A DNA stretch of 64,000 bases from Escherichia coli. GTDB lineage: Bacteria; Pseudomonadota; Gammaproteobacteria; Enterobacterales; Enterobacteriaceae. Every line of letters starts with the position of its first letter. Positions within the stretch are counted from its first letter, which is position 1. A program made the position numbers. Shown here in pieces: positions 2,327 to 5,300 of the stretch. The DNA is taken from NCBI RefSeq assembly GCF_003334405.1, contig NZ_QOWM01000005.1; one strand, written 5' to 3'.

Positions 2327-5300
2327 TTAATTAAAACAATGTTTCATTTCTATCGTTATACGAAAAGATGATCAATTACGCTAGCCTTAACGCGTGAATT
2401 ATTGTCTTATCACAACTTATCGGCAGGCGCGTTCCCGCCTTTCGGAGCAAGGCCAGCATCACTCCTTGAGAAGAGTTTTTATCGCTTCCCCCGCCAGGGC
2501 AGCTGTTGCACAGAGTTGTTCGATGGAGTGCCCCTCCCGTGCCTTCGCAGAAAGCCCTGACATCACGGTACTCATAAAATCAGTCACACATTGTGCGCTT
2601 TGTGGATGCCGCCTGGCGATATAGTCATAAATGGTCGTTTCTGCGGCGTGATAATATTGAACGGCAATATCACGCGCTTGTGGATCATGACTATGAATAC
2701 CTTCAAGAACCATACAGCCAGCGCAGCCGCCGTTTTGGCTATATCTGCGCGCCGCTTCTTTTAATGCCTCAACCAGGCACTCGCCTACCGGACGATCATC
2801 ACGAAGAATATCGGCAAGCGGAATAGCTTCCGTACCGACATATTCATTGAGTACACGGCTAAACAACCCAGCCTTACTGCCAAAAGCCGCGTAGAGGCTC
2901 GGGGGGTTAATACCAAGATAATCAGTAACTTCAGCAACACTGACTGCATCGAAACCTTTTTGGTGAAAAAGCACTTTTGCCGCAGAGACTGCCTGCTCAG
3001 GAGCGAAACGTCTGGGACGACCTGGAACGCGAGATTGTTTTTTAGTGACCATTACAAAACTTGTTGACAGAAAGTTAAAACAGTTTTGTAATGCATGTTA
3101 CATAATAAATCAAGGAGTCCTTATGGGCGCTTTTACAGGTATGACAGTTCTCATCCTCGGTGGCAGCCGTGGAATCGGTGCCGCTATCGTACGTCGTTTC
3201 GTCACCGATGGGGCCAATGTACGATTCACCTATGCGGGGTCGAAAGATGCCGCTGAACGCCTGGCACAAGAGACTGGAGCGACAGCAGTATTCACAGATA
3301 GTGCTGACAGAGACGCTGTTATTGATGTCGTTCGTAAGAGCGGCGCATTGGATATCCTGGTGGTAAATGCAGGTATTGGCGTCTTTGGCGATGCCCTGGA
3401 ATTAAATGCCGACGATATTGATCGCCTTTTCAAAATCAATATTCATGCTCCTTATCATGCCTCTGTTGAAGCCGCCCGGCAGATGCCCGAAGGCGGGCGC
3501 ATCTTAATCATCGGCTCCGTGAATGGCGATCGTATGCCTGTTGCAGGCATGGCTGCTTATGCCGCCAGTAAATCTGCCCTGCAAGGCATGGCGCGCGGGC
3601 TGGCCCGTGATTTCGGACCGCGTGGGATCACCATCAACGTCGTCCAGCCAGGGCCAATTGATACCGACGCTAATCCCGCCAACGGGCCAATGCGCGATAT
3701 GTTGCATAGTTTTATGGCTATCAAAAGACATGGGCAACCGGAAGAGGTCGCTGGTATGGTCGCATGGTTAGCAGGGCCAGAAGCCAGTTTTGTTACCGGC
3801 GCGATGCATACCATTGATGGCGCGTTTGGCGCATAACCGACTACGCTCAATTAAGCCCAGCCATTTCCCATGATGTCTGGGTTTTGTTTACTCACGTCGT
3901 CCGCTAAAAGCGGCTCCCGGTAAAGAGAAATCTTCTGTTCATGTCGTAAATCTTGAGGATAACCAAATGGTAGAAAGAACCGCTGTTTTCCCTGCTGGCC
4001 GACATTCACTATATGCTGAGCATCGTTATTCTGCGGCTATTCGTTCCGGCGATTTGCTGTTTGTTTCCGGGCAAGTAGGAAGTCGAGAGGACGGAACACC
4101 AGAACCCGATTTTCAGCAACAAGTCAGACTGGCATTTGATAATTTGCATGCGACCCTGGCAGCTGCGGGATGCACTTTTGACGATATCATTGATGTTACG
4201 AGCTTCCATACCGATCCAGAAAACCAATTTGAAGACATCATGACGGTGAAAAATGAAATATTTAGCGCCCCACCTTATCCAAACTGGACGGCGGTGGGTG
4301 TTACATGGCTGGCAGGCTTTGATTTTGAAATTAAAGTGATAGCGCGCATCCCTGAGCAGTAAGCAATAGTGTTAGCCGTTCGCTTTCACACTCCGCCCTA
4401 TAAGTCGGATGAATGGAATAAAATGCATATCTGATTGAGTGAAAGTGAAAAAGAAAAAAGCAGGGAATGTCTGCAATTATTGATACCGAAGGACAGTTCC
4501 CCTGCAGAATCACATCAAATAAAAATGCATATACCTTGACTTTTAATTCAAATAAACCGTTTGCGCTGACAAAATATTGCATCAAATGCTTGCGCCGCTT
4601 CTGACGATGAGTATAATGCCGGACAATTTGCCGGGAGGATGTATGGTTCAGTGTGTTCGACATTTTGTCTTACCGCGTCTGAAAAAAGACGCTGGCCTGC
4701 CGTTTTTCTTCCCGTTGATCACCCATTCCCAGCCCCTCAATCGAGGGGCTTTTTTTTGCCCAGGCGTCAGGAGATAAAAGATGGCTAATCCGCTATATCA
4801 GAAACATATCATTTCCATAAACGACCTTAGTCGCGATGACCTTAATCTGGTGCTGGCGACAGCGGCGAAACTGAAAGCAAACCCGCAACCAGAGCTGTTG
4901 AAGCACAAAGTCATTGCCAGCTGTTTCTTCGAAGCCTCTACCCGTACCCGCCTCTCTTTCGAAACATCTATGCACCGCCTGGGTGCCAGCGTGGTGGGCT
5001 TCTCCGACAGCGCCAATACATCACTGGGTAAAAAGGGCGAAACGCTGGCCGATACCATTTCGGTTATCAGCACTTACGTCGATGCGATAGTGATGCGTCA
5101 TCCGCAGGAAGGTGCGGCGCGCCTGGCTACCGAGTTTTCCGGCAATGTACCGGTACTGAACGCCGGTGATGGCTCCAACCAACATCCGACGCAAACCTTG
5201 CTGGACTTATTCACCATTCAGGAAACCCAGGGGCGTCTGGACAATCTCCACGTCGCAATGGTTGGTGACCTGAAATATGGCCGCACCGTTCACTCCCTGA

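What the first reader, a model, noticed from the sequence alone, without database searches (positions are those of the whole stretch)
3045..3122. bdcR-bdcA divergent control region: operator-like inverted repeat overlapping a near-consensus promoter
An imperfect palindrome (ttacaaaac...gttttgtaa, 3052-3092) overlaps TTGACA-17 nt-TGTAAT directly upstream of bdcA, and the bdcR start codon lies within about 10 nt of it. This is the expected layout for TetR-type autoregulation of a divergent pair linked to biofilm dispersal.
Basis: partly seen in the sequence, partly recalled or inferred. Interest (0 to 1): 0.25.

Follow-up and report, generated by a model that had tools for sequence, protein, structure and literature searches.

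The report
bdcR–bdcA promoter with two repressor sites
This is the ordinary 70-bp control region between the E. coli repressor gene bdcR and the reductase gene bdcA: a published two-way promoter flanked and overlapped by two deeply conserved palindromes that are most likely the repressor's binding sites, one of them sitting on the repressor's own start codon.

Summary
A perfect 12-nt inverted repeat (3050-3061 / 3082-3093, 20-nt gap) overlaps TTGACA-17-TGTAAT upstream of bdcA, and its left arm contains the bdcR start codon. The promoter is already published: the same hexamers are listed for K-12, and this identical sequence was shown to be a bidirectional promoter with mapped start sites.

The reading as one operator-like palindrome is only partly right. 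I compared 78 orthologous bdcR/bdcA pairs from alpha-, beta- and gamma-proteobacteria. All are divergent, with 67-79 bp between start codons. They show four equivalent half-sites arranged as two palindromes of the form TTnTGTA-N8-TACAnAA.
- O_L (3038-3059) is centred on the bdcR start codon and reaches into codons 2-5.
- O_R (3084-3105) covers both -10 hexamers and the bdcA start site.

Their 12/12 match occurs only in E. coli; the other loci reach at most 9/12.

The layout resembles CifR, the closest characterised homologue: two operators, one dimer on each, and an N-terminal arginine arm in AT-rich flanks. BdcR binding itself is untested here and I found no published mapping of its site. This is an ordinary TetR-type control region. 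Interest is low to moderate.

The parts
2459..3052 (-). bdcR (yjgJ) coding sequence, TetR-family regulator, 197 aa
   Evidence: ORF list; RefSeq annotation of 99%-identical E. coli genomes; Pfam TetR_N at residues 23-66, E 6.6e-13.
3123..3836 (+). bdcA (yjgI) coding sequence, NADPH-type short-chain dehydrogenase/reductase, 237 aa
   Evidence: Translation; NCBIfam NF009383, 480 bits against a cutoff of 343; annotation.
3050..3061 (.). It consists of the bdcR start codon, box 1, and 2 further nt.
   Evidence: the repeat finder I1.
3082..3093 (.). It consists of 2 nt, box 2, and 3 further nt.
   Evidence: the repeat finder I1.
3038..3059 (.). Predicted operator O_L, TTTTTTA-GTGACCAT-TACAAAA. Box 0 is 3038-3044, inside bdcR codons 3-5 (reaching into codon 6). 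Box 1 is 3053-3059. The centre is at 3048.5, on the bdcR start codon. This is -62..-41 relative to the bdcA start site and +18..+39 relative to the bdcR start site. The box 0 core is TTTA rather than TGTA in E. coli.
   Evidence: Pattern hit with 1 mismatch; conserved columns in alignment A2; found at the same place in 70 of 79 loci; synonymous-codon bias in bdcR codons 3-7.
3084..3105 (.). Predicted operator O_R, TTTTGTA-ATGCATGT-TACATAA. Box 2 is 3084-3090 and box 3 is 3099-3105. The centre is at 3094.5. This is -16..+6 relative to the bdcA start site and -29..-8 relative to the bdcR start site.
   Evidence: Pattern hit with 0 mismatches; invariant columns in A2; positions across loci.
3064..3069 (+). 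bdcA -35 hexamer, TTGACA
   Evidence: Sequence. TTGA is invariant in all 79 control regions. PMC3946193 lists it. In PMC12825309, 'down' -35 mutations, here TTGACA to AACTGT, reduced transcription in the expected direction.
3087..3092 (+). bdcA -10 hexamer, TGTAAT, with G at the second position
   Evidence: Sequence; PMC3946193; PMC12825309 Supplementary Table S2; not called by the consensus scan.
3100..3100 (+). bdcA transcription start (A); the 5' UTR is 23 nt
   Evidence: My reading of the marked stretch in PMC12825309 Supplementary Table S2 on the identical K-12 sequence. Start sites there come from Cappable-seq. The formatting of the table was lost, so the exact base is inferred.
3108..3113 (-). 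bdcR -35 hexamer, TTGATT on the - strand; it overlaps the bdcA ribosome-binding region
   Evidence: PMC3946193; PMC12825309 Table S2. Improving it to TTGACA did not raise bdcR transcription.
3085..3090 (-). bdcR -10 hexamer, TACAAA on the - strand; it shares 4 bp with the bdcA -10
   Evidence: PMC3946193; PMC12825309 Table S2.
3076..3076 (-). bdcR transcription start; the 5' UTR is 24 nt with no recognisable Shine-Dalgarno sequence
   Evidence: My reading of Table S2. It puts 23 bp between the two start sites, which equals the upper limit stated in the paper. The UTR folds less stably than shuffled controls, z = +1.9.
3112..3117 (+). bdcA Shine-Dalgarno sequence, AAGGAG
   Evidence: Sequence; conserved as CAAGGAG in alignment A2.

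Best explanation
The region is a sigma-70 bidirectional promoter controlled by the divergently encoded TetR-family repressor BdcR through two operators.

**Shown by others on the identical K-12 sequence.**
- bdcA is transcribed from TTGACA(3064)-17-TGTAAT(3087), starting at about 3100.
- bdcR is transcribed from TTGATT(3113)-17-TACAAA(3090) on the other strand, starting at about 3076.
- The two -10 hexamers overlap.

**Inferred here from comparative sequence.** BdcR recognises a 22-bp palindrome, TTnTGTA-N8-TACAnAA. The pooled half-site is TTnTGTAGTGA. It occurs twice.
- O_R (3084-3105) covers both -10 hexamers and the bdcA start site. A bound dimer there would exclude RNA polymerase in both orientations, repressing bdcA and autoregulating bdcR.
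- O_L (3038-3059) is centred on the bdcR start codon, just upstream of the bdcA -35 and about 18-39 nt into the bdcR transcript. It probably adds occupancy next to the bdcA promoter and blocks bdcR transcription. In E. coli its outer half is weakened (TTTA instead of TGTA).

**Inferred by analogy with CifR.** One dimer binds per operator. The helix-turn-helix motifs sit in adjacent major grooves over the TGTA/TACA cores. The invariant N-terminal GRPR arm (R12) sits in the AT-rich outer minor grooves. An unknown ligand releases the repressor.

For: **A conserved two-gene module.** All 80 loci found with a BdcR profile carry a divergent BdcA orthologue that is 70-84% identical (about a fifth to a quarter of the gene recovered in L004 and L006), while BdcR itself is only 51-61% identical. 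Start codons are 67-79 bp apart.

**Conserved sequence blocks.** An unconstrained MAFFT alignment of 79 control regions gives the consensus TTTTTTGTAGTnATCAT|TACAAAAnnCCTTGAC...ATTTATGTAGCGnTCnCTACATTAATnCTCAAGGAG. Invariant columns fall in all four boxes and in TTGA.

**Fixed positions.**
- 70 of 79 loci have both TGTA-N8-TACA sites with at most 1 mismatch.
- In 67 of those 70, the TACA of O_L abuts the aligned bdcR start position (in a minority of loci the usable ATG/GTG is one codon further in, so 3 nt from TACA).
- Centre-to-centre distance is 45-51 bp, with a mode of 47.
- The gap from O_R to the bdcA ATG is 17-22 nt.

**Conservation beyond the search pattern.** Flanking T's that were not part of the pattern are also conserved, for example T in 239 of 280 half-sites at position -2.

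**Constraint on DNA rather than protein inside bdcR.**
- In bdcR codons 3-7, 127 of 128 Thr codons are ACT or ACA, against 235 of 1463 elsewhere (p = 5e-89).
- Lys is AAA in 66 of 72 cases there, against 235 of 660 elsewhere (p = 4e-21).

**Specificity within the window.** In the 64-kb window the 22-bp pattern with at most 1 mismatch occurs only twice, both here. The expected count is 0.14, and none of 100 shuffles reached 2.

**Promoter evidence.**

**Repression.** BdcR is described as a negative regulator of bdcA in PMC6598151 and PMC6790063.

**The CifR precedent.** CifR has two operators in a divergent intergenic region, one dimer per roughly 26-bp site, and Arg6 in an AT-rich minor groove (PMC10827105). 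It is the closest characterised solved homologue, E = 3e-18. BdcR R12, Y54 and K60 align with the CifR DNA-contact residues Arg6, Tyr48 and Lys54. All three are invariant in 79 of 79 orthologues.

**Conservation within E. coli.** The region is at least 99% identical in 4650 of the 4771 E. coli genomes that carry it.
Against: - No binding data were available. The primary BdcR paper (Ma et al. 2011, PMC3057496) is not held.
- A ChIP-seq compendium included YjgJ but could not model its binding.
- Box 2 is also the shared -10 region, and the -35-like CCTTGA(C/G) blocks are conserved on both strands. Part of the conservation is therefore promoter rather than operator.
- E. coli O_L has a mismatch at a position that is G in at least 90% of loci.
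- The two operator centres are about 4.4 helical turns apart, which puts them on roughly opposite faces. This does not suggest direct cooperativity, so the role of O_L is the weakest step.
- The core columns are inflated because sites were selected by the pattern.
- One versus two dimers per operator cannot be told from sequence.
Confidence: 0.75

Rival explanations
1. The 44-bp inverted repeat (arms 3050-3061 and 3082-3093) is itself the operator. One BdcR oligomer binds both arms and brackets the bdcA -35 hexamer.
For: In E. coli this is the best-matching pair of half-sites, at 12/12. By comparison box 0/box 1 scores 9/12 and box 2/box 3 scores 7/12. The repeat is unlikely by chance.
Against: - The TACA and TGTA cores are 34 bp apart and face away from each other.
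- The closest solved relative places its two helix-turn-helix motifs 37.9 A apart in adjacent major grooves, with one dimer per site of about 26 bp.
- In the other 69 loci this pairing reaches at most 9/12, no better than any other pairing of the four boxes.
- The model does not explain conserved boxes 0 and 3 or the constant N8 spacing.
- The most divergent E. coli allele already breaks the 12th pair, T3061C.
Confidence: 0.08
2. The conserved boxes are not repressor sites. They are promoter and translation signals of a symmetric bidirectional promoter: -10-like TACAAT motifs together with AT-rich, unstructured translation-initiation regions.
For: - Box 2 is the -10 element for both genes.
- TACAAT-like boxes resemble -10 hexamers.
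- The first codons of genes are often AT-rich.
- The bdcR leader is unusually unstructured, z = +1.9.
Against: - Box 0 lies inside bdcR and box 1 lies downstream of the bdcR start site. Neither is placed to serve as a -10 for either mapped start site.
- General AT-richness does not explain a specific invariant T.TGTA at a fixed 8-bp distance from TACA, nor the same palindrome appearing twice.
- 127 of 128 Thr codons being ACT or ACA is sequence-specific, not merely AT-rich.
Confidence: 0.07
3. The palindromes are sites for a different, global regulator with a similar motif, such as CRP (TGTGA-N6-TCACA) or LexA (CTGT-N8-ACAG).
For: By my own comparison with the textbook consensus, O_R matches the CRP core at 8 of 10 positions (TGTaA...TtACA). 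This is not a tool result.
Against: - All four boxes keep TGTA, not TGTGA.
- The LexA spacing differs by 2 bp, and the flanking C and G are absent.
- The site centres, at -5.5 and -51.5 relative to the bdcA start site, are not CRP activation positions.
- The motif travels with BdcR across alpha-, beta- and gamma-proteobacteria at a fixed place beside its gene.
Confidence: 0.03

Closest known systems
CifR and its two operators in the cifR-morB intergenic region of Pseudomonas aeruginosa (PDB 6NSN; PMC10827105)
   Same: - It is the closest characterised solved homologue, E = 3e-18 over residues 10-182.
- Its recognition helix is nearly identical: PPSLYAAFGSK.
- It is a TetR repressor divergent from an oxidoreductase gene.
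- It has two separate operators in the intergenic region, each needing about 26-27 bp, with one dimer per operator.
- An N-terminal arginine sits in the AT-rich outer minor groove.
- BdcR R12, Y54, K60 and C113 align with CifR Arg6, Tyr48, Lys54 and Cys107 and are invariant in the family.
   Different: - BdcR binding, stoichiometry and ligand are untested.
- I could not obtain the CifR operator sequences, so motif similarity is unknown.
- The target is a single SDR gene, not a morB-transporter-cif operon.
- One BdcR site is centred on the regulator's own start codon and extends into the coding sequence.
TetR / tetO1-tetO2 in the tetR-tetA intergenic region (the family paradigm)
   Same: - Repressor and target genes are divergent with a short intergenic region, 81 bp for tet and 70 bp here.
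- There are two palindromic operators overlapping divergent promoters, so that one repressor controls both genes.
   Different: - The tet operators are 15 bp and 11 bp apart. The predicted BdcR sites have 16-bp cores within 22 bp and lie 46 bp apart centre to centre.
- Here only one site overlaps the promoters.
- The target is a cytoplasmic reductase, not an efflux pump.
AcrR at the acrA/acrR bidirectional promoter (PMC12825309)
   Same: - Same promoter class and same study.
- The divergent start sites share a -10 region.
- A TetR-family autorepressor is encoded on one side.
- AcrR represses both RNAs in vitro.
   Different: For bdcA/bdcR only basal transcription and -35 mutants were tested. 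No repressor was added, and the cloned fragment (window 3064-3113) lacks O_L.

Membership tests
TetR-family repressor with divergent target (TetR/tetO paradigm) | The regulator carries an N-terminal TetR-type helix-turn-helix domain | tested here: met
   Pfam PF00440 TetR_N at residues 23-66, E 6.6e-13. Full-length homology to solved TetR-family proteins 2i10 and 6nsn, E about 1e-18.
TetR-family repressor with divergent target (TetR/tetO paradigm) | The target gene is divergently oriented with under 200 bp between the genes | tested here: met
   There are 70 bp between start codons. The same arrangement, at 67-79 bp, is found in all 80 related loci. The 200-bp rule is from PMC3511530.
TetR-family repressor with divergent target (TetR/tetO paradigm) | Palindromic operator(s) overlap promoter elements | tested here: met
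   Two TGTA-N8-TACA palindromes are present. O_R covers both -10 hexamers and the bdcA start site. This is sequence evidence only.
TetR-family repressor with divergent target (TetR/tetO paradigm) | The regulator physically binds the operator | not testable with these tools
   No EMSA or footprint data were accessible. Ma et al. 2011 is not held, and the YjgJ ChIP-seq data could not be modelled.
TetR-family repressor with divergent target (TetR/tetO paradigm) | The regulator represses the target and itself, and a ligand relieves repression | not testable with these tools
   [quoted passage not shown] I found no data on autoregulation or on a ligand.
Bacterial bidirectional sigma-70 promoter (shared -10 region, closely spaced divergent start sites) | Divergent start sites lie roughly 10-23 bp apart, use overlapping -10 hexamers, and are transcribed in both directions by RNA polymerase alone | tested here: met
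   This is literature evidence on the identical sequence: Cappable-seq start sites and in vitro transcription of both RNAs. On the window, the -10 hexamers at 3087-3092 (+) and 3085-3090 (-) share 4 bp.
CifR-like subgroup of TetR regulators | Sequence relationship, plus conservation of the CifR DNA-contact residues (Arg6 arm, Tyr48, Lys54) and the sensing residue Cys107 | tested here: met
   HMMER alignment. I deduced a numbering offset of 2 and checked it on 10 residues named in PMC10827105. R12, Y54, K60 and C113 are invariant in 79 of 79 orthologues.
CifR-like subgroup of TetR regulators | Release from DNA by epoxides or other electrophiles through the conserved cysteine | not testable with these tools
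   This needs an EMSA with and without electrophile, and a C113S mutant.

The most novel reading that the evidence does not exclude
BdcR/BdcA may be an ancient, horizontally mobile two-gene module that responds to electrophiles in the manner of CifR. In this reading the repressor senses a thiol-reactive compound through its invariant Cys113, the equivalent of CifR Cys107, and switches on an NADPH-dependent reductase. One of its two operators is built into the repressor's own first codons. The operator half-site would then dictate the N-terminal Thr-Thr-Lys residues across Proteobacteria. The biofilm-dispersal phenotype would be an indirect consequence rather than the function.
Probability: 0.25. 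Interest if true: 0.45.

Novelty: new member of a known kind. Interest (0 to 1): 0.27.

Why it matters
The promoter and the regulator are already known, so the region is not a discovery. What the comparison adds is a concrete, base-resolution operator model for BdcR. In the literature available to me I found no mapped binding site for it.

The model makes three things testable:
- Why bdcA and bdcR should be co-repressed, since one site lies on the shared -10 region.
- Which bases to mutate to test this.
- Why the published in vitro promoter fragment (3064-3113) would capture only one of the two sites.

The comparison also links BdcR to CifR, whose conserved cysteine senses epoxides. That gives a testable lead on the unknown inducer of a gene pair that has been used in biofilm-dispersal engineering.

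Tried and rejected
- **Consensus promoter scan.** It did not call the bdcA promoter because of G at the second position of the -10 hexamer, and it found nothing on the bdcR side. I relied on the literature instead.
- **RNA explanations.** Rfam gives no match in 2900-3300. The bdcR leader plus first codons folds less stably than 197 of 200 shuffles.
- **Chance.** Rejected for the inverted repeat and for the paired 22-bp motif. The bare 16-bp core TGTA-N8-TACA alone is not significant: 2 hits against 0.39 expected, with 11 of 100 shuffles reaching 2. The second hit, at 56745, is probably chance.
- **CRP and LexA sites.** Considered from the textbook consensus sequences and rejected on core bases, spacing, position and phylogenetic distribution.
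- **Primary literature on BdcR binding.** Ma et al. 2011 (PMC3057496) and Ballok et al. 2012 (PMC3457200, the CifR operators) are not held. Supplements of the ChIP-seq compendium and of the CifR structure paper are not held. I therefore could not check whether an EMSA for BdcR exists, nor compare operator sequences with CifR.
- **First tblastn for BdcA.** It used a frame shifted by one base, because I placed the ATG at 3124. I corrected this to 3123 and repeated the search.
- **Structure prediction.** Not run, because sequence homology to solved TetR proteins was already unambiguous.
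Full report
**What is there.** The window is E. coli DNA. A 2.1-kb stretch around the finding is 95-99% identical to 4816 complete E. coli genomes. These annotate it as tabA, bdcR (TetR/AcrR family), bdcA (SDR oxidoreductase) and yjgH, followed by pyrLBI.
- bdcR is 2459-3052 on the minus strand.
- bdcA is 3123-3836 on the plus strand, preceded by AAGGAG at 3112-3117.
- Only 70 bp (3053-3122) separate the two start codons.

**Checking the observation.** The repeat is real and better than described. The arms CATTACAAAACT (3050-3061) and AGTTTTGTAATG (3082-3093) are 12 nt, perfectly complementary, and 20 nt apart. Perfect repeats of this size with a gap of 40 nt or less are rare: three distinct ones in the window against 0.17 expected from shuffles. 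TTGACA (3064-3069), a 17-nt spacer and TGTAAT (3087-3092) are as stated. The bdcR start codon lies inside the left arm. The simple promoter scan did not report this promoter because TGTAAT has G at its second position.

**The promoter is already known.** Shimada et al. 2014 (PMC3946193) list, within an RpoD holoenzyme SELEX peak, 'TTGACA-17-TGTAAT bdcA' and 'TTGATT-17-TACAAA bdcR'.

A 2026 paper from NAR (PMC12825309) uses bdcA/bdcR as one of five bidirectional promoters.
- Its cloned K-12 fragment is identical to window 3064-3113.
- Start sites came from Cappable-seq, and both RNAs were made in vitro.
- 'Down' -35 mutations, here TTGACA to AACTGT for bdcA, reduced transcription in the expected direction.
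- Improving the bdcR -35 did not raise bdcR transcription.

My reading of the marked stretches in its Supplementary Table S2 puts the bdcA start at 3100 and the bdcR start at 3076. That leaves 23 bp between them, the upper limit the paper states. The table's formatting was lost, so the exact bases are inferred. The two -10 hexamers, 3087-3092 (+) and 3085-3090 (-), overlap.

**What the repeat really is.** BdcR homologues outside Escherichia are only 51-61% identical, yet their helix-turn-helix region is nearly invariant. A profile scan of one genome per species returned 80 loci from alpha-, beta- and gamma-proteobacteria. Every one carries a divergent BdcA orthologue that is 70-84% identical (about a fifth to a quarter of the gene recovered in L004 and L006). 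Start codons are 67-79 bp apart.

Aligning 79 distinct control regions without any constraint gave this consensus:

TTTTTTGTAGTnATCAT|TACAAAAnnCCTTGAC - variable - ATTTATGTAGCGnTCnCTACATTAATnCTCAAGGAG

Invariant columns fall in four 'TGTA/TACA' boxes and in TTGA. The boxes pair as two palindromes, each TGTA-N8-TACA with T-rich and A-rich outer flanks.
- Seventy of 79 loci have both palindromes with at most 1 mismatch.
- In 67 of those 70, the left one has its TACA directly against the aligned bdcR start position; in a minority of loci the usable ATG/GTG lies one codon further in, still inside the 8-bp spacer.
- The right one lies 45-51 bp further on (mode 47), and 17-22 nt before the bdcA ATG.
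- The pooled half-site is TTnTGTAGTGA. The outer T's, which were not part of the search pattern, are also conserved.

In the window the two sites are:
- O_L = 3038-3059, TTTTTTA GTGACCAT TACAAAA, with one core mismatch.
- O_R = 3084-3105, TTTTGTA ATGCATGT TACATAA.

These are the only two matches to the 22-bp pattern with at most 1 mismatch in 64 kb. The expected count is 0.14, and none of 100 shuffles reached two.

**A half-site inside the coding sequence.** The outer half of O_L is bdcR codons 3-5, usually ACT ACA AAA. Across the loci, 127 of 128 Thr codons in bdcR codons 3-7 are ACT or ACA, against 16% elsewhere in the two genes (p = 5e-89). Lys is AAA in 66 of 72 cases there, against 36% elsewhere (p = 4e-21). 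The constraint therefore acts on the DNA and not only on the protein.

Its arms are box 1 (the right half of O_L) and box 2 (the left half of O_R). Any two boxes are partly complementary because all four are copies of one half-site. Across loci, every pairing averages 7.2-7.7 matches out of 12. Only E. coli reaches 12/12 for box 1 with box 2; the other 69 loci reach 9 at most. I cannot say whether this E. coli perfection is chance or has a meaning. The most divergent E. coli allele already breaks it with T3061C.

**How it most likely works.** O_R spans -16 to +6 of bdcA and -29 to -8 of bdcR. A repressor bound there should block RNA polymerase in both orientations. O_L spans -62 to -41 of bdcA and +18 to +39 of bdcR. 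It could add occupancy beside the bdcA -35 and obstruct bdcR transcription. This second role is the least secure step, particularly because E. coli's box 0 reads TTTA.

[quoted passage not shown] I could not read the primary paper and found no mapped site. A ChIP-seq compendium that included YjgJ could not model its binding.

**The closest known system.** The nearest characterised solved homologue is CifR of P. aeruginosa, E = 3e-18. CifR has two operators in its divergent intergenic region, each needing about 26-27 bp. A single dimer binds each operator, with its helix-turn-helix motifs in adjacent major grooves. Arg6 of an N-terminal arm reads an AT-rich outer minor groove. [quoted passage not shown]

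The HMMER alignment, together with a numbering offset of 2 that I checked on ten residues named in the paper, equates BdcR residues with CifR residues as follows:

| BdcR | CifR |
|---|---|
| R12 | Arg6 |
| Y54 | Tyr48 |
| K60 | Lys54 |
| C113 | Cys107 |

All four are invariant in 79 of 79 orthologues. The geometry also fits. The T's contacted in the CifR operator lie 8-10 bp from the dyad, where the BdcR sites have their conserved TnT. These points support 'works like CifR'. They do not show binding or identify the ligand.

**Alternatives.**
- RNA structure is excluded: there is no Rfam match, the leader is unusually unstructured, and no transcript carries both arms.
- Promoter and translation signals explain box 2 and the two CCTTGA(C/G) blocks. 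They do not explain boxes 0, 1 and 3 or the repeated N8 palindrome.
- CRP and LexA motifs are superficially similar. They differ in core bases, spacing and position, and would not travel with bdcR across classes.

**Verdict.** The promoter is published and the regulator is known. The dual-operator model is new only as far as I could check, and it is a typical TetR arrangement. I rate this as a new member of a known kind, with low to moderate interest.

Noticed in passing
window 3141-3143 (bdcA codon 7): This strain's BdcA has Met instead of Lys at residue 7 (GMT rather than GKT, just before the glycine-rich NADPH-binding motif). E. coli ATCC 11775 has Lys, and the codon is AAA or AAG in all 78 orthologous loci in alignment A2. 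It could be a loss-of-function or altered-cofactor allele.
   Followed up: partly
window 3050-3061 / 3082-3093: The perfect 12/12 complementarity of box 1 and box 2 occurs only in E. coli; the other 69 loci reach 9/12 at most. Given about 45% matching at non-core positions, the chance of 8 of 8 extra matches is roughly 0.002 per locus. This is unexplained. It could be chance, local sequence conversion, or an E. coli-specific binding mode.
   Followed up: partly
bdcR residue C113 (window about 2714-2716, minus strand): An invariant Gly-Cys (G112 C113) in all 79 BdcR orthologues aligns with CifR Cys107, the residue critical for epoxide sensing. This suggests that BdcR senses a thiol-reactive compound.
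   Followed up: partly
loci L002-L081 compared with the window: BdcA is much more conserved than its regulator: 70-84% against 51-61% identity to E. coli. No BdcR homologue between about 65% and 90% identity was found outside Escherichia/Shigella. The pair is absent from about 12% of complete E. coli genomes, and three copies are on plasmids. This is consistent with a horizontally mobile two-gene module.
   Followed up: no
window 6205-6238 and 57206-57232: These are the only other perfect inverted repeats of at least 12 nt with short gaps in the window. They are probably terminators or other regulatory hairpins. The first lies downstream of pyrB. I did not examine them.
   Followed up: no
window 56745-56760: This is a second exact match to the bare core TGTA-N8-TACA (TGTATACAGCCTTACA). 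It lacks the T-rich and A-rich flanks and is within chance expectation.
   Followed up: no
E. coli genomes NZ_AP045764.1, NZ_CP195969.1, NZ_AP021896.1 (hits H1-H4): In several otherwise closely matching strains, the 2.1-kb tabA-bdcR-bdcA-yjgH stretch is interrupted by an IS4-like or IS3-family element. The match is split into two pieces about 1.3 kb further apart. I did not determine which gene is disrupted.
   Followed up: no
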